A DNA stretch of 62,866 nt, filler included. It is 7 parts of 7 records of this genome, joined end to end, with 100 filler letters (N's around TTAATTAATTAA, not from the genome) between each part and the next. Parts side by side here need not be neighbours in the genome. Positions count along the whole stretch, not along the records: positions 50,378 to 57,181 come from SRR31147125_17597; 6 more parts are not named here. One strand, 5' to 3'. Made by a program: the position numbers and the translations under genes. Under the pieces are notes generated by a model. That model ran no database searches and was not told where the DNA came from. It saw only the letters and a program-made list of their open reading frames with translations. Positions 20,473-57,281 of this stretch are shown piece after piece; the stretch's first letter is position 1; each line of letters opens with the position of its first letter.

Positions 20473-20572
20473 NNNNNNNNNNNNNNNNNNNNNNNNNNNN
20501 NNNNNNNNNNNNNNNNTTAATTAATTAANNNNNNNNNNNNNNNNNNNNNNNNNNNNNNNNNNNNNNNNNNNN
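20473..20572. other. Contig-joining spacer
   Basis: N-run, TTAATTAATTAA (stops in all frames), N-run. Confidence 0.98.
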
Positions 20573-28054: not shown

Positions 28055-28154
28055 NNNNNNNNNNNNNNNNNNNNNNNNNNNNNNNNNNNNNNNNNNNNTT
28101 AATTAATTAANNNNNNNNNNNNNNNNNNNNNNNNNNNNNNNNNNNNNNNNNNNN
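28055..28154. other. Contig-joining spacer
   Basis: N-run, TTAATTAATTAA, N-run. Confidence 0.98.
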
Positions 28155-38329: not shown

Positions 38330-38429
38330 NNNNNNNNNNNNNNNNNNNNNNNNNNNNNNNNNNNNNNNNNNNNTTAATTAATTAANNNNNNNNNNNNNNN
38401 NNNNNNNNNNNNNNNNNNNNNNNNNNNNN
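38330..38429. other. Contig-joining spacer
   Basis: N-run, TTAATTAATTAA, N-run. Confidence 0.98.
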
Positions 38430-44497: not shown

Positions 44498-44597
44498 NNN
44501 NNNNNNNNNNNNNNNNNNNNNNNNNNNNNNNNNNNNNNNNNTTAATTAATTAANNNNNNNNNNNNNNNNNNNNNNNNNNNNNNNNNNNNNNNNNNNN
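44498..44597. other. Contig-joining spacer
   Basis: N-run, TTAATTAATTAA, N-run. Confidence 0.98.
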
Positions 44598-50277: not shown

Positions 50278-50377
50278 NNNNNNNNNNNNNNNNNNNNNNN
50301 NNNNNNNNNNNNNNNNNNNNNTTAATTAATTAANNNNNNNNNNNNNNNNNNNNNNNNNNNNNNNNNNNNNNNNNNNN
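50278..50377. other. Contig-joining spacer
   Basis: N-run, TTAATTAATTAA, N-run. Confidence 0.98.
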
Positions 50378-50378
50378 A

Positions 50379-50609
50379 AAAAGTGAAACAAGAGAAGCTT
50401 TTTACAACTTTATAGGAAAAAGTTCATCACGCATGAAATCAATATGGATGAAAAGAATGCTGTCAGGAGAGGGCGATCCTCCGGAGGCCTTACCGTCTTT
50501 GAATGAGATGTTAAAAAAAGTGGCATCGACTCCAGGCGCAATCGGGTTTATTAACCATAATAACGTCAACGAGGAAGTGAAAACACTCATGCTCATAGAT
50601 GTAAAGTGA
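50379..50609 (+). CDS. C-terminal part of a small PBP-like (PstS-fold) protein, not in the ORF track
   Basis: Manual translation KSETREAFY..W.KRMLSGEGDPP..KKVASTPGAIGFI..VK*. Confidence 0.65.
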   Translation, partial: KSETREAFYNFIGKSSSRMKSIWMKRMLSGEGDPPEALPSLNEMLKKVASTPGAIGFINHNNVNEEVKTLMLIDVK

Positions 50610-50660
50610 GTAAACCTGTGATTAGAAAAAAAACAATCAGAATGAATTTTAAGGGATAAT

Positions 50661-52389
50661 ATGTATTTTAAAGATTTTAAGCTGGGTACAAAGCAGAAAA
50701 TCGGCTTTGGGTTCATTCTTTTCATTATGACAGGAGCAAATTTTTTTTCAATTAATAGAATGAAATCAATCAAAGCTGAATTTGCAACAGTGACAACAAA
50801 CTGGCTGCCAAGAGCCATTGCTGTTTCCGATATTAATCTATACACCTCTGACCTGCGCCTCAATCAATTGCAGCACGCCTTCGCAACTGACGAGGCAAGT
50901 AAGCAGTCTCAAGTTGAAAAAATGATCTTATTGATCGATAATATTAATGAGAATCTTGACATCTATGATTCTCTTAAAACAGACTCTGAACAACGCCATC
51001 TTTATTCCGTCATAGAGCGCCAGCTTTTTTCCGAGTTTGATCAAAAGTGGGATGATTATCAAGCTTTAAGTATTATGTTTTTTAAATTTTCACGTGAAAA
51101 TGAACGTCAAAAAGCTGTGGAACTCTTGAATGGGGAAGCGAAAAACGTATTTAATGATATTAGTGAGATCCTGGTAAAGATTGTCAATAATTATGAAAAA
51201 GATGTGTTTACGTCTACCAGCCGTGTTGACAATGCTTTTAAAACGACCCGGCTCGTAGCTCTGGGTCTGTTGATCACGACTGTAGCGTTATCATTTTTTC
51301 TCATTCGTACTAATCCGATGGATAACAGTACCTATTCATCAATTAGAAAAAGCAGCAAAAAAGGTAGCAGAAGGAAATTTGAATGTGGAATTAGACATCC
51401 TTAGTAAAGATGAGATCGGAAATCTATCCAGATCCTTTAACAGTATGACATCCTCTCTTAAAAAAGCAACGGAAAAACTAAAAAGCCAGGCCGATCGATT
51501 AAAAAAGCAAGCGGTCAATTTAAAAGCCACTAACAAAGAATTAAAAGATAAATCTGTTCTCCTTGAAAAACAAAAAACTGAAATAATCCAAAAAAATCTG
51601 GCTCTTTATTCAACAATGGAGGAATTAGAATCGACGCAGGAGCAATTATTAATGAAGGAAAAAATGGCTTCTTTGGGAGATTTGGTTGCCGGAGTAGCCC
51701 ACGAGATTAATAATCCGATTGGCGTCGTAATCAGCTCCCAGAATGTTTCTGAGCGCTGTATTTATAAAATAGAACTTTTATTAGACAAAAGTTCAACAAT
51801 TGATGAATTAAAAAAAGACGAGGGCCTTGCAAAATCATTAAATATCCTCAAAGACTCTTCAAGCGTTATTCTAACGGCAAGTAACCGAATTGTTACCATT
51901 GTAAAAAGCCTGAAAAATTTTGCCAGATTAGATGAGGCGGAATATCAGCTGGTAAATATACACGAAGGCATCAACAGTAGTTTGACACTTTTGGGAACAG
52001 AGATTCAGCAACGCATTTCCGTGGTCAAAGAATATAGTGACATTCCAAAATTTGAATGCAATCCCGGTCAATTGAACCAGGTATTCATTAACGTGCTGAA
52101 AAACGCTGCACAAGCCATTGAAGAACAAGGTGTAATTCACATAAAAACATTTTTAAAGAACAGCAAAATTTATGTTCAGATCTCCGATACAGGCAAAGGT
52201 ATTCCCACCGACAAATTGAAGAAAATTTTTGACTTTAGTTTTTCCGCCGAAGACAAACGTGTAAAGTTGGGATCAGGCTTGGCAACAGCTTATAATATCG
52301 TACAAAAGCACAAAGGAGAAATTCTTGTAGAAAGTGAAATCGGGAAAGGATCTACGGTTTCAGTTATTTTGCCGAAGGAGCAGGATTAA
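50661..52389 (+). CDS. Sensor histidine kinase (four-helix sensor, HAMP, HisKA, HATPase), frameshift ~51295
   Basis: TM-4HB-TM, DEIGNLSRSFN HAMP, GVAHEINNP H-box, N/G boxes; frames join at a T-run. Confidence 0.88.
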
Positions 52390-52579
52390 ATAAATTCTCC
52401 TCTTCCTGTTTTTCCTCATTTGTCAAACCTTCTTTGTAATTAAGTTTGCTAATTACCTCCTGAATGATATGTGACGTCGTGTCAAAATTTAGATCTTAGA
52501 AGTATAAATTGAGTTTGACAAGTATATAATTATCTGTAACCTAAGTCCGGCCATCTTGTTGAAAAATCATCAAAAAACA

Positions 52580-52652
52580 AAATAACCAAATAACCCAAAT
52601 GATCAAAGCACCAAATCACCTGTAGATGATTGTCCGGGACGAACGGCACGAA
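52580..52652 (-). repeat. Shared 3' element, copy B (VR end plus IMH-like tail)
   Basis: 67/73 nt identical to 54653-54725, including non-coding ~8-nt GGTTATTT-like tandem repeats. Confidence 0.9.
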
Positions 52653-54599
52653 CACAATTATCAAACCGACGTAAGGAGAAGCAATCACCACTGTCAAAGT
52701 TGACAACCCAGGTGATAGGCACGTCGCCATCCTTCAACAAATCCCCGGTCCAAATCCACCTCTGCCTGTTGTCAAACACCGGATCAATGTAAAGATCCTT
52801 ATTCTCCTTCTTTGGCTCCACCAAACTCATGGCCTCCTCAAGCGTCGGCAGCCGCCAGTCTGAGTATCCCGCATATTTTTTCAAATTCATATTATTTATA
52901 TATTCCTGTGCTCTATTAAATAACATTACATCTTCAGATCCCCCCTGCTGCCACATCAAACCCGTGGCTAAATCCATTATAATTTTATCATACGAAATTT
53001 CATGAGGAATATATATATGTGTTATGCCTTCTCCTTTTTTATTATAATTCCTATCATATAAATCATGTTTTTTCAGCATGGTTTTTGTTTGTTTTTCAGA
53101 TAAATTCGATATTTTTGTTGCTCTAAAAAATCTGGGCTTTATTGCACCAGTTATAAAATCAATGACTCTCTGAGGAATATCAAAGTTGATTCCCACTATT
53201 TTGGTCGATTTATTGACAAGTGCATCAATAATAAACCGAGCTGCAAAGTATTCGGCAAAAGAACGATGCGAAAAACCATAATTCCCTTTATCGTCTCTAA
53301 CTAAAAATGTGCGCGTTCGAACTTCAGCAATTCTTTTATTTAATTCTTCTAATGAATTTTGCTTATCTAAAAATCTTTTCAGCTCTGATTGCTCCACATC
53401 TTGTTTTTCAACAAGAGACAACAACTCATTTTGTATTTTTTCGTAAGACAACATGTCTGGTCCGCCACAGCAAATAATATGAAATCCCCACAAAGACATC
53501 ACTTCTATCGCAATGTGTTTGAGTATGAAATCTGCAGGACCTTTCTCATTCTCTCTAGGCAAAACATGATCTACAATCTGTGTATAGATCTCCCAATTAT
53601 TTAATTCAGCTCCCTTTTGTTTCAGACTTTGAATAGATTTTAAGATATCGATGTCATTTAAATAATTTAAGATAACAATACGCCTCGAAATATCGATAAA
53701 ATTGGGATATTTTTCTATAATCTTCCAATAACTCCTCCATCTAAACGGATGGCTCAATTTCAAAAAATACTTTATTTGCTCTTGTGTAAAATAGGAAATA
53801 TATCGAGTGGTTAAATAAGGTTCAGCTTCTGCAGAAACAAAAAATGGGTTCGACTGGTAATAATCACCTTGTAATAATTAGATGTGAGATCCATTATTTC
53901 TTGAAATTCTTCTTTAGAAGGACCCCGCTTTTTATATTCATCATAAGCGTCTAAAAATAGAATGGTCTTTTCACGGTTTTTAGTTTTGGTTTCATTTAAT
54001 TTTTGCTCTAAATCAAGATCTTCCTTACCTAATTCAATTACTTCAACTTCCATTGAGAGCATTGTGGTAACAATCTCATGTGCCATATAAAAACAAAAAG
54101 TGGTTTTCCCTGTCCCAAAGTCTCCTAAAAGCAATAAATAGCTTTTTCTGTACTGGCTTGGGTCAAACAACCAATCCCACATTTTTTTTCTGAGTGATTC
54201 ACGTGTTGGATCCCGGGCAATATCTTCAATCGGATTAATATCTTGACAGTTAATATCCACATAATGTTTGGGTAACTGCTCAGTAAAATCCTTTTTTATT
54301 TTAATCGATCTCTCAGATTCTTTTTCAGGAGGGAATGCAGTAAAATAAAGGGAAATAAGCGCCACCAATAAAGCCAGAAGTGAAATGATAAAATTTTTAT
54401 CAGTATGTTCAATTTTTTCGTTGTTTATAAGCAAGTCTATAAATTCAGTTCCAAACAGCCAAACTAAATACGCGCTGATGATAAAAATAAATCCAGGGAC
54501 AATGTGACGTTTATTTTTTTTATTACGCTTCTGCTTTCTAAGCTCTCTTTCTGGTTTACTGACTGGATAACGTTTATTTTTGTATTTTTTCCAATTCAA
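52603..54599 (-). CDS. 2TM-NACHT/STAND NTPase-DUF1566 (Lcl/CLec) protein, frameshift ~53840; putative DGR target
   Basis: GDFGTGKT Walker A, LFLDAYDE Walker B, FSHRSFAEYFAA winged-helix motif, TGLMWQQ..GYSDWRLPTLEE..VRAVR; one extra T joins the two ORFs; likely TTG start at 54599. Confidence 0.82.
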
Positions 54600-54652
54600 G
54601 ACATCTTTCCAGATAATAACATTAAGAACAAGCAGAATTAAAATATATCTAG

Positions 54653-54725
54653 AAATAACCAAATAACCCAAATGATCAAAACACCAAATCACCTATAGAA
54701 GATTATCCGCTACGAACGGCACGAA
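54653..54725 (-). repeat. Shared 3' element, copy A (VR end plus IMH-like tail)
   Basis: Direct repeat of 52580-52652. Confidence 0.9.
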
Positions 54726-55631
54726 TATAAGAATCACTAATGTCGAGGCTGACATGGTTGCAATCACCATCGCTAAAGTAGACAATCCAGGCGCCAGATC
54801 GGTTTCCCTCCCTACACCTGTCCCCTGTATAAATATACCTTTGCATCTCATCAAACACCGGATCAATGTAAAGATTATTATATCTCTTCTCCCGCTCCAT
54901 TAAACTCATTGCCTCCTCTAATGTCGGCAGTCTCCAGTCTGAAAAACCTGCAAATCCTTTCCTATTCAAATTATTTAAATATTCCGGCGCTTTCTCGAAA
55001 GCTATATAATCCTCCGATCCCCCTGCTGCCACATCAATCCGGAAGCACTATCAACAATCACCTTATCCCCTCTTATAACTTGCTCTTCATATTCATGAAT
55101 AAAACCCTGTCCCTCAGGATTTCTATTTATCTCATAAAGATTATGGCCTCTAAGCATCTCTATAACTTCTGCTGTTGATAACTCTTTTAGCTGAGCCCGT
55201 AATACAAGCGATTCAGGGTTAATTGCCTTTAAAATATTTTTAATACCATTTTTATATTCTGTATCAGGAAACAGATCTACCCAGTGTCTTGAACGTAATT
55301 TTTTATTAAGAACTCTGCACTCCTCAAGTCTGACAGGTATTAAAAAAATGTGGCCTTCAGGATAATAATCTAATAAATCTAAAGCCTTTTTAGACTCTTT
55401 TTGAACATAACCTTTCTTATTTATAGAATTATTTGATAGCAATGCTATGAAAAATGAACAATTTTCAATAGCATTTTCGATCTCGAACTCCCAATCTTGT
55501 CCTGCTTTAAGATCAACCTGATCAAACCAAATATCTAAATTACAACGTCTAAGATCCTCATAAATCTTTTTTGCCAGACCAATATCTTCATGGGCATAGC
55601 TAAGAAATATTTTACTCTTCTCTCTTTTCAT
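54703..55631 (-). CDS. TIR-DUF1566 (Lcl/CLec) protein, frameshift at G-run ~55019-55023; putative DGR target
   Basis: IFLSYAHED..IWFD..GQDW..YVQKE TIR; SGLMWQQ(GG)SED..GFSDWRLPTLEE..IRAVR; the paralog has G6 where this gene has G5. Confidence 0.85.
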
Positions 55632-55799
55632 CAAACCTATCTCCGATTCTTAATTGGGGAATAAGAAGTCTTGTCAACAGAACATCTATTATAAAAAACA
55701 TAAATAGTCCAGCCAACCCAAGCCGCTCATCCCTTAACAAATTACCTCCAATATGTTTTATTCACGGATTTGTTTGATGGTCTATTTTATAAAAAACAC

Positions 55800-57104
55800 T
55801 CACCACCTGGGTAAAACTCGCTTCCAATTCGGATTCACATGCTTTTGCATCTCTGCTTCGTCGTCTCGTTTTCGATAGGGTATTTTTACATATCGCTCTT
55901 TGCCACGGGCGAGCTGATCGTAATCCAGGTCGACACCGAGTCCGGGATTATCGGGGATTTTTACACATCCATTTTCAATAGGAACTCGTCCTCCATTAAC
56001 GACTTCGTCCTTTTCCGACTGCCATGGGTAATGAGTATCGCAGGCGTATGTCAGGTGAGGTGTTGCGGCTGCCACGTGAGCCATACCCATAAGCGACACG
56101 CCCAGATGACTGTTCGAATGCATGGACAGACCGATGCCAAATACTTTAGCCAGTTTTGCAAGATGCTGTACCTGCCGCATACCACCCCAGTAATGGTGGT
56201 CACAGAGTATAATTTGCACGGAATCCAGTTTCACGGATTGGGGAATATGATCAAAAGAAGTGACAGCGACATTGCTGGCTAAGGGAACATCAATACCTTC
56301 AGCCAGGAGTTGTTTCCGCACCATCGACATGTTTTCCAGTCCTGCTGTTGGGTCCTCCAGGTAACCGCCATTGGAAAGTTCCAGAGCCAGATTTTTGCCA
56401 ACCTGAACGGATGTTTCCACCGTCCATGCCGAATTGGGATCGATGCGCAGCGGAACGTTGGGACCGAATTCCCGGTACATTTGTTTTACTGTTTGGACTT
56501 CAATATCCGGATCAAGCACGCCACCCTTGAATTTAATAGAGCCGAAACCATATTTGTTAATCATTTGTTTAACCTGTGAAACCAGGGATTCGGGAGTCAG
56601 AGCCTCACCATATTCATCTTCGCGGACATCATCACCTTCGCCACCACCACCGGCATGTTTATAAAAAGGATAAGCAGAAAAAGGAACCTCGTCACGAACC
56701 CGGCCGCCAATTAAATCGCAAACAGGCTGCCCAACAGATTTGCCAATGAGATCGAGACAGGCTACCTCGATAGCGGCAAAGGTGCGAGTGGATACGTCAA
56801 GGGGATTTTCACCGGGAACAAGAAATGTCTGCGACCGCTCCAGACCACCCTCTCCTCCTTCGAGCATGGGTGCCAATAGCCCGGTAAGACGGTAAGGATT
56901 GGCACCAATAATTTGTGGTTTCAGGGATTCCAAAGCTTGTGCCGGCCCATCACCACCATAAGTTTCGTTAATGCCAATGATACCATCTTCACTTTCGAGC
57001 TCTAAAATCGTTCGAAGTGCATAAGGTGCGTGTAAGCCGTAGGAGCTGAGTAAGGGTGGATCAGCAATCGCGATGGAATGTATTCGCATGTCTTTAATTT
57101 TCAT
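55800..57104 (-). CDS. Glucarate dehydratase-like enolase-superfamily enzyme
   Basis: IKFKGG, LRIDPN..W, YLEDP, SMHSNSHLG, ACDTHYPW motifs. Confidence 0.85.
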   Translation of the reverse strand: MKIKDMRIHSIAIADPPLLSSYGLHAPYALRTILELESEDGIIGINETYGGDGPAQALESLKPQIIGANPYRLTGLLAPMLEGGEGGLERSQTFLVPGENPLDVSTRTFAAIEVACLDLIGKSVGQPVCDLIGGRVRDEVPFSAYPFYKHAGGGGEGDDVREDEYGEALTPESLVSQVKQMINKYGFGSIKFKGGVLDPDIEVQTVKQMYREFGPNVPLRIDPNSAWTVETSVQVGKNLALELSNGGYLEDPTAGLENMSMVRKQLLAEGIDVPLASNVAVTSFDHIPQSVKLDSVQIILCDHHYWGGMRQVQHLAKLAKVFGIGLSMHSNSHLGVSLMGMAHVAAATPHLTYACDTHYPWQSEKDEVVNGGRVPIENGCVKIPDNPGLGVDLDYDQLARGKERYVKIPYRKRDDEAEMQKHVNPNWKRVLPRW

Positions 57105-57153
57105 GTAACCTCCCAATTAAATTATCGATACACTATACAGTAACCTCCCCGCC

Positions 57154-57181
57154 CTGGATTCCCGATACGAACACTCGGGAA
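57154..57181. repeat. REP-like palindrome at contig end
   Basis: CTGGATTCCCGA-TACGAACAC-TCGGGAA. Confidence 0.55.
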
Positions 57182-57281
57182 NNNNNNNNNNNNNNNNNNN
57201 NNNNNNNNNNNNNNNNNNNNNNNNNTTAATTAATTAANNNNNNNNNNNNNNNNNNNNNNNNNNNNNNNNNNNNNNNNNNNN
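57182..57281. other. Contig-joining spacer
   Basis: N-run, TTAATTAATTAA, N-run. Confidence 0.98.

What the first reader, a model, noticed from the sequence alone, without database searches (positions are those of the whole stretch)
52580..55631. Tandem TIR-lectin and NACHT-lectin genes that look like DGR-diversified immune/conflict receptors
Seen: two adjacent minus-strand genes carry different N-termini (TIR; 2TM plus NACHT/STAND ATPase) fused to the same ~170-aa C-terminal module (linker plus DUF1566/Lcl). Their DNA is most alike at the extreme 3' end and beyond the stops. Known: DUF1566 is a C-type-lectin-fold domain commonly targeted by diversity-generating retroelements, and TIR and STAND domains are core signalling/effector modules of bacterial antiphage and innate-immune-like systems. 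Inference: this is a receptor pair whose ligand-binding tips are hypermutated in trans by a DGR elsewhere in the genome, coupling variable recognition to TIR or NTPase signalling.
Basis: partly seen in the sequence, partly recalled or inferred. Interest (0 to 1): 0.88.

Follow-up and report, generated by a model that had tools for sequence, protein, structure and literature searches.

The report
Retroelement-type variable tips on two immune genes
Two neighbouring bacterial immune-type genes end in the same lectin-like binding domain whose tip carries the marks of a retroelement that rewrites such tips in related bacteria, but the rewriting machinery itself could not be looked for in this genome.

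Summary
Two adjacent minus-strand genes, TIR + Lcl_C (55634-54703) and hydrophobic N-terminus + P-loop STAND-like NTPase + Lcl_C (54692-52603), share a ~390-nt 3' module (74% identical). Its last ~78 nt are 86% identical. Both frameshifts are assembly errors: an independent contig of the probable source run has one extra base at each break.

The DGR reading is supported by comparison, not shown in this genome. In related loci the same gene types flank bAvd-TR-RT cassettes, and 13 of 76 loci hold a ~100-nt template whose mismatches to the gene tips lie almost only at template adenines. The "most alike 3' end" is a family-wide DNA signal, GACAATC followed by TTTG words every 8-9 nt. All 13 templates differ from it at one base.

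The window's tips show replacement changes at codon positions 1 and 2 (17/10/4 against 16/16/29 upstream, p 0.0011) and adenine depletion. No RT or template lies in the 62.9 kb, which is seven concatenated contigs, and no whole genome is held. One complete relative has eight modules and no RT, so orphaned targets exist.

Verdict: a new member of a known kind. DGR-target class about 0.9; currently rewritten in trans about 0.5.

The parts
54703..55634 (-). TIR + linker + Lcl_C gene. It is intact in the source reads; the window lacks one base in a G run near 55018.
   Evidence: ORFs. Pfam TIR_2 and Lcl_C. Extra base after 55018 in the X1 contig. Full-length homologues of about 310 aa, e.g. P0034 at 54% identity over the TIR half.
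55236..55610 (-). TIR domain (residues 9-133 of the 210-aa ORF).
   Evidence: PF13676, E 6.2e-28. Domain-level hits to TIR parts of defence systems in PADLOC.
54712..55008 (-). Lcl_C (DUF1566) lectin-fold domain of the TIR gene.
   Evidence: PF07603, E 6e-15.
54724..54804 (-). Variable-repeat-like tip of the TIR gene (27 codons).
   Evidence: Differences from the other copy fall at codon positions 1 and 2. The lowest-adenine 90-nt stretch of the gene lies here.
54648..54725 (-). 3' target-end element of the TIR gene. The invariant VRAVR-coding end is followed by GATAATC (T where VR ends usually have C; this T makes the stop codon) and then TTTG words.
52603..54692 (-). Gene with a hydrophobic N-terminus, a P-loop STAND-like NTPase and Lcl_C. 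It is intact in the source reads; the window lacks one base in a T run near 53838. The true start codon is uncertain, because the listed GTG lies inside the upstream 3' element.
   Evidence: ORFs. Pfam. Extra base after 53838 in the X1 contig. Homologue P0036 (668 aa) matches both halves at 44-47% identity.
54333..54503 (-). Two hydrophobic stretches (about residues 64-84 and 101-120 of the listed ORF), read as two membrane helices.
   Evidence: Read from the translation. No membrane-helix predictor was run.
53838..54146 (-). P-loop NTPase core, with Walker A GTGKT and Walker B LFLDAYDE read in the translation.
   Evidence: NPHP3_N, AAA and nSTAND3 hits. Translation printed.
52639..52983 (-). 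Lcl_C (DUF1566) lectin-fold domain of the NTPase gene.
   Evidence: PF07603, E 1.4e-19. Model pLDDT 85, best match Legionella Lcl C-terminal domain 8q4e (Z 10.1).
52651..52725 (-). Variable-repeat-like tip of the NTPase gene (25 codons).
   Evidence: Adenine fraction 0.16 against 0.34 for the whole gene.
52575..52652 (-). 3' target-end element of the NTPase gene. The invariant VRAVR-coding end is followed by GACAATC and about five TTTG words at 8-9-nt spacing, running past the stop codon.

Best explanation
Both genes are intact members of a large family in which an effector or switch (TIR, STAND NTPase, caspase and others) is fused to a C-terminal Lcl_C/DUF1566 lectin-fold sensor. The last ~25-30 codons of that sensor form a variable repeat of the kind a diversity-generating retroelement (DGR) rewrites.

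Shown here: the domains, the lectin fold, the family-wide VR-end DNA signal (GACAATC plus TTTG words every 8-9 nt), the codon-position and adenine-depletion marks in the window's two tips, and true template-VR pairs in relatives, both beside the cassette and in trans.

Inferred: the window's tips were written by such an element, with odds of about 0.9. They are still rewritten in trans by a bAvd-TR-RT cassette elsewhere in the source genome, with odds of about 0.5, which is the figure given as confidence. Binding of an invader molecule by the variable face then switches on the TIR domain (NAD cleavage) or the NTPase with its membrane-spanning N-terminus, which stops the infected cell.

The NTPase copy has the canonical target end. 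The TIR copy has a template-like T at the distinguishing base and may be a poorer target or a locked one.
For: Domains and fold.
- Pfam hits as above. The module model has pLDDT 85. Its best match is the Legionella Lcl C-terminal domain (Z 10.1, rmsd 3.1, 114 residues aligned), followed only by C-type-lectin-like domains.

Family.
- 1105 proteins at E <= 1e-3 among 1311 candidates, with TIR_2, Peptidase_C14, nSTAND3, KAP and other N-termini.
- In the alignment the first two thirds of Lcl_C are conserved. The tip is hypervariable on a fixed scaffold, with a loop of variable length, and ends in VRAVR(SGQSS).

Relatives.
- 394 loci in genome contigs encode a relative; 76 were kept.
- 13 of the 76 hold a ~100-nt second copy whose mismatches to the tip lie at its adenines. 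Examples: L020 16 of 16, L045 11 of 11, L048 12 of 12, L002 17 of 18.
- L020 reads NTPase-Lcl_C / bAvd / TR / RT / TIR-Lcl_C. L002 reads NACHT-LRR-Lcl_C / bAvd / TR / RT / Lcl_C.

Action in trans in relatives.
- VRs on other contigs match a template with adenine-specific mismatches: L038 15 of 17, L068 11 of 12, L025 17 of 18, L009 10 of 12 and 14 of 16, L031 17 of 18. L031 is a cassette-less NTPase + TIR pair like the window's.

The 3' signal.
- Of 98 VR-type ends, 55 have GACAATC within 16 nt after the VRAVR codons.
- 66 of 98 have three or more TTTG words downstream, against 0.69 expected in shuffles. The spacing is mostly 8-9 nt.
- All 13 templates have A, T or G at the C position.
- The signal is kept whether or not it is translated, since many genes stop just before it.

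The window's own marks.
- Differences between the two tips: codon positions 1/2/3 = 17/10/4 in 25 codons, against 16/16/29 in the 73 codons upstream (Fisher p 0.0011).
- The 90-nt stretch with the least adenine is the last one in both genes, 0.16 and 0.19 against 0.34 and 0.33 for the whole genes.
- The partly non-coding 3' tail is 86% identical (67 of 78), against 72% (158 of 219) for the coding part upstream.
Against: - No template-like third copy and no RT-like ORF by a YxDD motif scan in the 62.9 kb. No whole genome is held, so the defining template-VR pair is untested here.
- Three pattern scans of public contigs for the window's 3' element found nothing usable: searches gave 0 hits, and one search gave 3 unrelated GC-rich hits (sequence printed).
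- The two tips differ by a two-codon indel and at 33 of 90 aligned positions. That is more than the cassette-flanking pairs of relatives show, e.g. 25 mismatches over 251 nt in L020. They cannot both be fresh copies of one template.
- The TIR copy has T at the VR/TR-distinguishing base.
- A complete 6.3-Mb relative chromosome (G001) has 8 module matches but no RT, either with the L020 RT protein or with PF00078. Two of its four module ends examined still carry the signal. The signal therefore outlives the element.
- Only contigs, not reads, could be laid, so polymorphism in the tips could not be seen.
- No function of the TIR or the NTPase was tested.
Confidence: 0.5

Rival explanations
1. Orphaned targets. 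The tips were written by a DGR in the past, but the cassette has been lost from this lineage. The two genes are now fixed-specificity sensors that drift by ordinary mutation.
For: - No RT or template in the window.
- Cassette decay is common in relatives. RT scraps of 47-75 aa lie between the two target genes in L013, L023 and L029, and nothing is left in L031 and L071.
- G001 has 8 module matches and no RT.
- G005 has a template but only weak RT matches, best E 5e-8. In its locus L036 an unrelated 180-aa ORF lies where the RT usually sits; I read it by eye as transposase-like and did not scan it.
- The window's tips are more diverged than the active pairs of relatives and differ in length.
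- The TIR copy's signal is altered.
Against: - The partly non-coding 3' signal is better kept (86%) than the coding part upstream (72%), which suggests it is still under constraint.
- Third codon positions in the tips are nearly identical (4 differences in 25 codons), against 29 in 73 upstream.
- 3 of the 5 relative genomes searched hold a strong match to the L020 RT, E 2e-143 or better.
- Of 32 loci with at least 5 kb on both sides, only 7 have a template nearby, so lacking a cassette next door is the rule, not a sign of loss.
Confidence: 0.35
2. Static paralogues from ordinary duplication and domain shuffling that no retroelement ever touched. The alike 3' end would be a shared terminator or a leftover of the duplication.
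For: - No RT or template in the available sequence.
- DNA similarity runs through the whole 390-nt module, as expected of a duplicated segment.
Against: - The 3' element is not private to this pair. It recurs behind Lcl_C genes of many unrelated genomes and behind proven VRs.
- It does not fold: z-scores +0.71 and -0.26 against shuffles, so it is not a terminator hairpin.
- The codon-position switch and the adenine depletion are not expected of plain paralogues.
- Homologous gene pairs flank cassettes in relatives.
Confidence: 0.07

Closest known systems
DGR target category 'd' / CLec2 variable repeats (DUF1566, DUF823, Fib_succ_major), exemplified by Legionella LdtA (Wu et al. 2018, PMC5758913; passages read)
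   Same: - A C-terminal DUF1566-type lectin-fold domain carries the VR.
- A conserved IMH-like end marks the VR.
- Remote and multiple targets, indels opposite AAC codons, and RTs with a MutS_I-like tail are all described there.
   Different: - Per the passages read, the described CLec2 targets are exemplified by a surface lipoprotein. Here the partners are TIR and a P-loop NTPase, and I read no signal peptide in the translation.
- The VR end is followed by TTTG words rather than a GC-rich inverted repeat.
- The supplementary tables of that paper could not be seen and may list such architectures.
DGR-diversified putative antigen sensors of multicellular bacteria (Dore et al. 2024, PMC10907252; passages read) and the DGR-linked conflict systems of Kaur et al. 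2020 (PMC7159879; passages read)
   Same: - STAND NTPase, TIR or peptidase parts are fused or linked to a C-terminal lectin-fold VR.
- Incomplete loci are diversified in trans.
- The proposed role is recognition of invaders.
   Different: - Those papers describe CLec / FGS (formylglycine-enzyme-type) domains. 'DUF1566', 'Lcl' and 'PF07603' occur 0 times in the main text of the first, and 'DUF1566' 0 times in the second.
- The relatives found here carry KSB1, Calditrichia and Scalindua record titles.
- Whether the RT here belongs to their clades was not tested.
Bordetella phage BPP-1 DGR (Mtd, IMH / IMH*, cruciform), as summarised in PMC5758913
   Same: - A VR at the 3' end of a lectin-fold gene.
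- The template end differs from the VR end at a few bases, which sets the direction of transfer.
- Mutagenesis is specific to adenines.
   Different: - No GC-rich IMH and no hairpin directly behind the VR.
- The VR/TR difference is a single base in GACAATC.
- The targets are cytoplasmic immune-type proteins, not a phage tail fibre.
Earlier finding e1-4049142 of this scan (TIR part fused to a binding part beside a DGR template)
   Same: The same protein family and the same kind of evidence. Its '14 differences all at A' equals what I counted for the TIR-Lcl_C gene of L020 (14 of 14).
   Different: That locus has the template next door; the window has none.

Membership tests
DGR target (variable protein) gene | Variable region lies in a C-type-lectin-fold domain at the 3' end of the gene | tested here: met
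   PF07603 hits. The model matches Lcl C-terminal domain 8q4e at Z 10.1, then C-type lectins at Z 7-8.7. By Foldseek alone the best E-value is only 7e-3.
DGR target (variable protein) gene | A template repeat in the same genome matches the VR, with mismatches at template adenines | tested here: inconclusive
   No third copy in the 62.9-kb window, and none of the 13 relatives' templates matches the window's tips. The source genome is not held.
DGR target (variable protein) gene | A DGR-type RT (and usually Avd) in the same genome | tested here: inconclusive
   No YxDD-bearing RT-like ORF in the window. No genome is held. Not all ORFs of the window were scanned against Pfam.
DGR target (variable protein) gene | A conserved VR end (IMH-like) that differs from the template end | tested here: met
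   The NTPase copy has GACAATC plus TTTG words, as do 55 of 98 (GACAATC) and 66 of 98 (three or more words) VR-type ends of relatives. All 13 templates have a non-C base there. The TIR copy has T, so it is met for one copy and doubtful for the other.
DGR target (variable protein) gene | Replacement-biased variation (NNC/NNT codons) and adenine depletion in the VR | tested here: met
   17/10/4 against 16/16/29 differences by codon position, p 0.0011. Adenine fraction 0.16 and 0.19 against 0.34 and 0.33.
DGR target (variable protein) gene | Read-level or population-level variation confined to the VR | not testable with these tools
   Only assembled contigs of runs X1-X3 could be laid. They show no other letters, but contigs drop rare variants.
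TIR-domain NAD-cleaving immune effector | TIR fold with the conserved glutamate | tested here: inconclusive
   TIR_2 at E 6e-28. A glutamate in the KGYVQKE stretch lines up with a glutamate kept in all 11 TIR rows of alignment A1. That this is the catalytic residue is recalled, not tested, and no assay was done.
STAND NTPase (NACHT) | NACHT-type P-loop with Walker A and B and a match to the NACHT family model | tested here: not met
   Walker A and B can be read in the translation, and NPHP3_N and AAA hits pass their cut-offs. There is no PF05729 hit, and nSTAND3 is below its cut-off at 25.7 against 27.2 bits. Best called STAND-like.
Known anti-phage defence systems (PADLOC) | Whole-protein match to a catalogued defence protein | tested here: not met
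   Only domain-level TIR hits (best E 2e-13), a weak IetA hit (E 6e-4) and no hit for the C-terminal half.

The most novel reading that the evidence does not exclude
GACAATC followed by three to six TTTG words at 8-9-nt spacing is this DGR lineage's own target-site signal. It would replace the GC-rich IMH and cruciform of the Bordetella phage element and let one cassette rewrite many dispersed immune-sensor genes in trans. The five relative genomes searched gave 8 to 32 matches to the module alignment each, counting templates and fragments.

The single C-versus-non-C base would set the direction from template to target. A C-to-T change, as in the window's TIR gene, would lock a sensor's specificity. 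The signal could then be used to list the whole set of DGR targets of a genome without knowing its template.
Probability: 0.35. Interest if true: 0.65.

Novelty: new member of a known kind. Interest (0 to 1): 0.45.

Why it matters
DGR-rewritten lectin-fold sensors joined to TIR, STAND or caspase parts are the nearest bacterial analogue of an anticipatory receptor repertoire. They have been described for the FGS/CLec type (PMC10907252 and PMC7159879, passages read).

This window adds the Lcl_C/DUF1566 type, in a cassette-less TIR + NTPase gene pair. The comparison made here shows three things.
- The family is very large: 1105 proteins at E <= 1e-3 and 394 loci.
- It is mostly remote from any cassette.
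- It is marked by a simple DNA signal behind the VR, which I did not find mentioned in the passages I read.

If that signal is the homing site, it gives a direct bench test of how targets are chosen in trans.

Tried and rejected
- Whole-genome search for RT, Avd and template: impossible, because no genome is held.
- Earlier notes of this scan on this genome: none.
- Exact-pattern scans for the window's 3' element: 0 hits in genome contigs and 0 in metagenome contigs.
- A looser VR/TR-end pattern in metagenome contigs gave 3 hits (L089-L091). All are GC-rich unrelated sequence, that is, chance matches.
- Laying runs: only contigs were available. No other letters appear in the tips, which says nothing about rare variants. 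Run X3 laid nothing. Run X2, a marine sediment metagenome, holds two identical 151-nt pieces of the NTPase at depth 2; this is too little to say anything about the tips.
- One window copy acting as template for the other: rejected. Of 33 differing positions, the NTPase copy has A at 8 and the TIR copy at 12, so there is no adenine specificity. Both copies are adenine-poor (0.13 and 0.18 in the last 90 nt), whereas the templates recovered as module ends score 0.26-0.33.
- A hairpin or cruciform in the 3' element: not found.
- PADLOC: no whole-protein defence family.
- Literature: 0 papers hold DUF1566 + TIR + reverse transcriptase. The one paper listed for DGR + KSB1 does not deal with these targets.
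Full report
WHAT IS THERE

The window is not one piece of DNA. It is seven contigs joined by linkers of 44 N, TTAATTAATTAA and 44 N, and their G+C ranges from 0.29 to 0.54. The finding lies on the 6,804-nt contig 50378-57181 (G+C 0.38). No whole genome is held for the window.

On the minus strand, four ORFs make two genes.
- 55634-55002 hits TIR_2 (E 6e-28). It overlaps 55032-54703, which hits Lcl_C/DUF1566 (E 6e-15).
- 54692-53811 has two hydrophobic stretches and a P-loop. Its hits are NPHP3_N and AAA above their cut-offs and nSTAND3 just below; there is no NACHT model hit. It is followed by 53763-52603, which ends in Lcl_C (E 1.4e-19).

Both breaks sit in homopolymer runs. An independently assembled 10,995-nt contig of run X1, the probable source of this DNA, covers 52400-55800 without any other difference. 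It has one extra base after 53838 and one after 55018. Both genes are therefore intact and the frameshifts are assembly errors.

Full-length relatives exist for both architectures. TIR-Lcl_C proteins run to about 310 aa (P0034, 54% identity over the TIR half). NTPase-Lcl_C proteins run to 620-670 aa (P0036, 44-47% identity).

THE REPEAT

52580-52962 and 54653-55040 are 74% identical over 390 columns, and no third copy exists in the window. The last 78 nt are 86% identical (67 of 78), against 72% in the coding part upstream.

Part of the likeness 'beyond the stop' has a plain cause. The TIR copy reads TAA where the NTPase copy reads CAA, so its stop falls 11 codons before the TGA that both copies share. 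Only 23 identical nt lie after that TGA.

WHAT THE MODULE IS

A model of the 172-aa module, built from 24 aligned sequences, has pLDDT 85. Its best structural match is the C-terminal domain of Legionella Lcl (8q4e: Z 10.1, rmsd 3.1, 114 residues). A long list of C-type-lectin-like domains follows at Z 7-8.7. By Foldseek alone the best E-value is only 7e-3.

The module family is very large. There are 1105 proteins at E <= 1e-3 among 1311 candidates of 212-676 aa. Their N-termini include TIR_2, caspase-like Peptidase_C14, nSTAND3, KAP NTPase, pentapeptide and LRR repeats.

In the alignment the first two thirds of Lcl_C are almost invariant. The tip is hypervariable on a fixed scaffold (W.V.F..G.C, then a loop of variable length, then VRAVR, often followed by SGQSS).

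RELATIVES ARE TRUE DGR TARGETS

A scan of one genome per species found 394 loci that encode a relative, and 76 were kept. Most record titles name candidate division KSB1, Calditrichia, Scalindua or Deltaproteobacteria MAGs.

Comparing each gene tip with its own locus gave the following.
- In 13 of 76 loci there is a second ~100-nt copy whose mismatches lie almost only at its own adenines: L002 17 of 18, L011 12 of 14, L015 11 of 13, L018 13 of 14, L020 16 of 16, L022 12 of 13, L026 13 of 13, L036 17 of 18, L041 11 of 11, L045 11 of 11, L048 12 of 12, L049 18 of 20, L055 14 of 15.
- Pfam confirms the cassette. L020 reads NTPase-like-Lcl_C, bAvd, template, RT with a MutS_I-like tail, TIR-Lcl_C. 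L002 reads NNH1-NACHT-LRR-Lcl_C, bAvd, template, RT, Lcl_C.
- The window's two gene types are therefore the very pair that flanks the cassette in L020 and L022, and they follow it in L048.
- Templates also match tips on other contigs of the same genomes, again with adenine-specific mismatches: L038 15 of 17, L068 11 of 12, L025 17 of 18, L009 10 of 12 and 14 of 16, L031 17 of 18 with a one-codon gap. L031 is an NTPase + TIR pair with no cassette beside it, like the window's.
- One-codon gaps between a template and an otherwise clean VR occur in four more pairs. Such indels are described in PMC5758913 (passages).

THE 3' ELEMENT

- Among 98 VR-type ends, 55 have GACAATC, 3 have T and 1 has A at the C position. 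The other 39 have a near variant or none.
- 66 of 98 have three or more TTTG words in the next 67 nt, against 0.69 in shuffles.
- Successive words lie 8 nt (98 cases) or 9 nt (63 cases) apart.
- The signal is kept whether it is translated (as SGQSS) or lies behind a stop codon, so it is a DNA constraint.
- All 13 templates have A (8), T (3) or G (2) at the C position, and they lose the likeness just after AATC. This fits the IMH / IMH* logic of known DGRs (PMC5758913, passages).
- It does not fold into a hairpin. The z-scores are +0.71 and -0.26 for the window's two copies.

The window's NTPase copy has the canonical C. The TIR copy has T, and that is the same change that creates its early stop.

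MARKS IN THE WINDOW'S OWN TIPS

Between the two copies, the 25 aligned tip codons differ at positions 1/2/3 in 17/10/4 cases. The 73 codons upstream differ in 16/16/29 cases (Fisher p 0.0011). Nearly all variable codons are of the NNC or NNT form.

In both genes the 90-nt stretch poorest in adenine is the last one, 0.16 and 0.19 against gene means of 0.34 and 0.33.

WHAT IS NOT SHOWN, AND WHAT SPEAKS AGAINST

No RT-like ORF and no template lie in the 62.9 kb. The genome cannot be searched. Public contigs hold neither this element nor a cognate template. Only assembled contigs of the runs could be laid, so variation in the tips cannot be seen.

The two tips differ by a two-codon indel and at 33 of 90 positions. 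That is more than the active pairs in relatives show.

Cassettes decay often. RT scraps remain in L013, L023 and L029, and nothing is left in L031 and L071. Of 32 loci with at least 5 kb on both sides, only 7 have a template and 6 a full RT.

One complete 6.3-Mb chromosome (G001) gives 8 module matches but no RT, with either an RT protein or PF00078 as the query. Yet two of its four module ends examined keep the signal. The signal alone therefore does not prove present activity.

MECHANISM

Shown: the architecture, the fold, the signal and the marks of adenine mutagenesis.

Inferred: a template RNA from a cassette elsewhere is reverse-transcribed with errors at adenines, and the cDNA replaces the tip, using the VRAVR-GACAATC end as its 3' anchor. 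The variable face of the lectin fold binds an invader molecule. Binding then activates the TIR domain (NAD cleavage) or the NTPase with its two-helix membrane N-terminus.

From the translation I read both proteins as cytoplasmic. The TIR protein has no signal peptide, and the N-terminus of the NTPase before its first hydrophobic stretch is rich in lysine and arginine. No predictor was run for either point.

COMPARISON WITH WHAT IS KNOWN

- DUF1566-type VRs are category 'd' / CLec2 of Wu et al. 2018. That paper also describes remote targets, indels opposite AAC codons and MutS_I-like RT tails (PMC5758913, passages).
- DGR-diversified STAND, TIR and peptidase sensors that are also rewritten in trans are described by Dore et al. 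2024 (PMC10907252, passages) and Kaur et al. 2020 (PMC7159879, passages). Both deal with CLec/FGS domains, and the word DUF1566 occurs in neither main text.
- No paper in the library holds DUF1566, TIR and reverse transcriptase together.
- Supplementary tables were closed and may list such architectures.
- An earlier finding of this scan (e1-4049142) covers the same family beside a template.

VERDICT

The genes belong to a DGR-target class with odds of about 0.9. Rewriting in trans at present has odds of about 0.5, the orphan reading about 0.35, and the reading that no retroelement ever touched them about 0.07. This is a new member of a known kind. The TTTG-word target signal and its single distinguishing base are the part most worth a bench test.

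Noticed in passing
window 20473-20572, 28055-28154, 38330-38429, 44498-44597, 50278-50377, 57182-57281: The window is seven contigs joined by linkers of 44 N, TTAATTAATTAA and 44 N. The contigs range from 0.29 to 0.54 G+C, so they may not all come from one organism. Linking a feature on one contig to a feature on another is unsafe.
   Followed up: partly
window 50661-51404 and 51379-52389 (+): Two overlapping plus-strand ORFs (247 and 336 aa) look like the front and back halves of one sensor histidine kinase. This may be a third homopolymer frameshift of the assembly.
   Followed up: no
window 55800-57116 (-): The 438-aa ORF just upstream of the TIR gene lies in a stretch of G+C 0.50. Its neighbours have 0.32-0.39.
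   Followed up: no
L020:11354-12877, L002:3815-5479: The DGR reverse transcriptases of these relatives carry a C-terminal MutS_I-like domain (E 4e-6 and 7e-9). Wu et al. 2018 note this for three RTs.
   Followed up: partly
L013:10549-10776, L023:10681-10821, L029:5943-6158: Short RT remnants of 47-75 aa lie between two Lcl_C target genes, where intact cassettes sit in L020 and L022. These are snapshots of cassette loss.
   Followed up: partly
G001 (genome of L010 and L065): A complete 6.3-Mb chromosome gives 8 module matches and no reverse transcriptase with either of two queries. Two of its four module ends examined keep the GACAATC + TTTG signal.
   Followed up: partly
L036:11101-11272: Here the template copy is followed by the same TTTG words as the VRs; other templates lose the likeness after AATC. 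An unrelated 180-aa ORF lies where the RT usually sits. I read it by eye as transposase-like and did not scan it.
   Followed up: no
L033 module end at 2695, L051 at 11353, L076 at 10468: The three VR-type ends with T instead of C in GACAATC each have at least one sibling target gene with C in the same locus. The window's TIR (T) and NTPase (C) pair shows the same arrangement.
   Followed up: no
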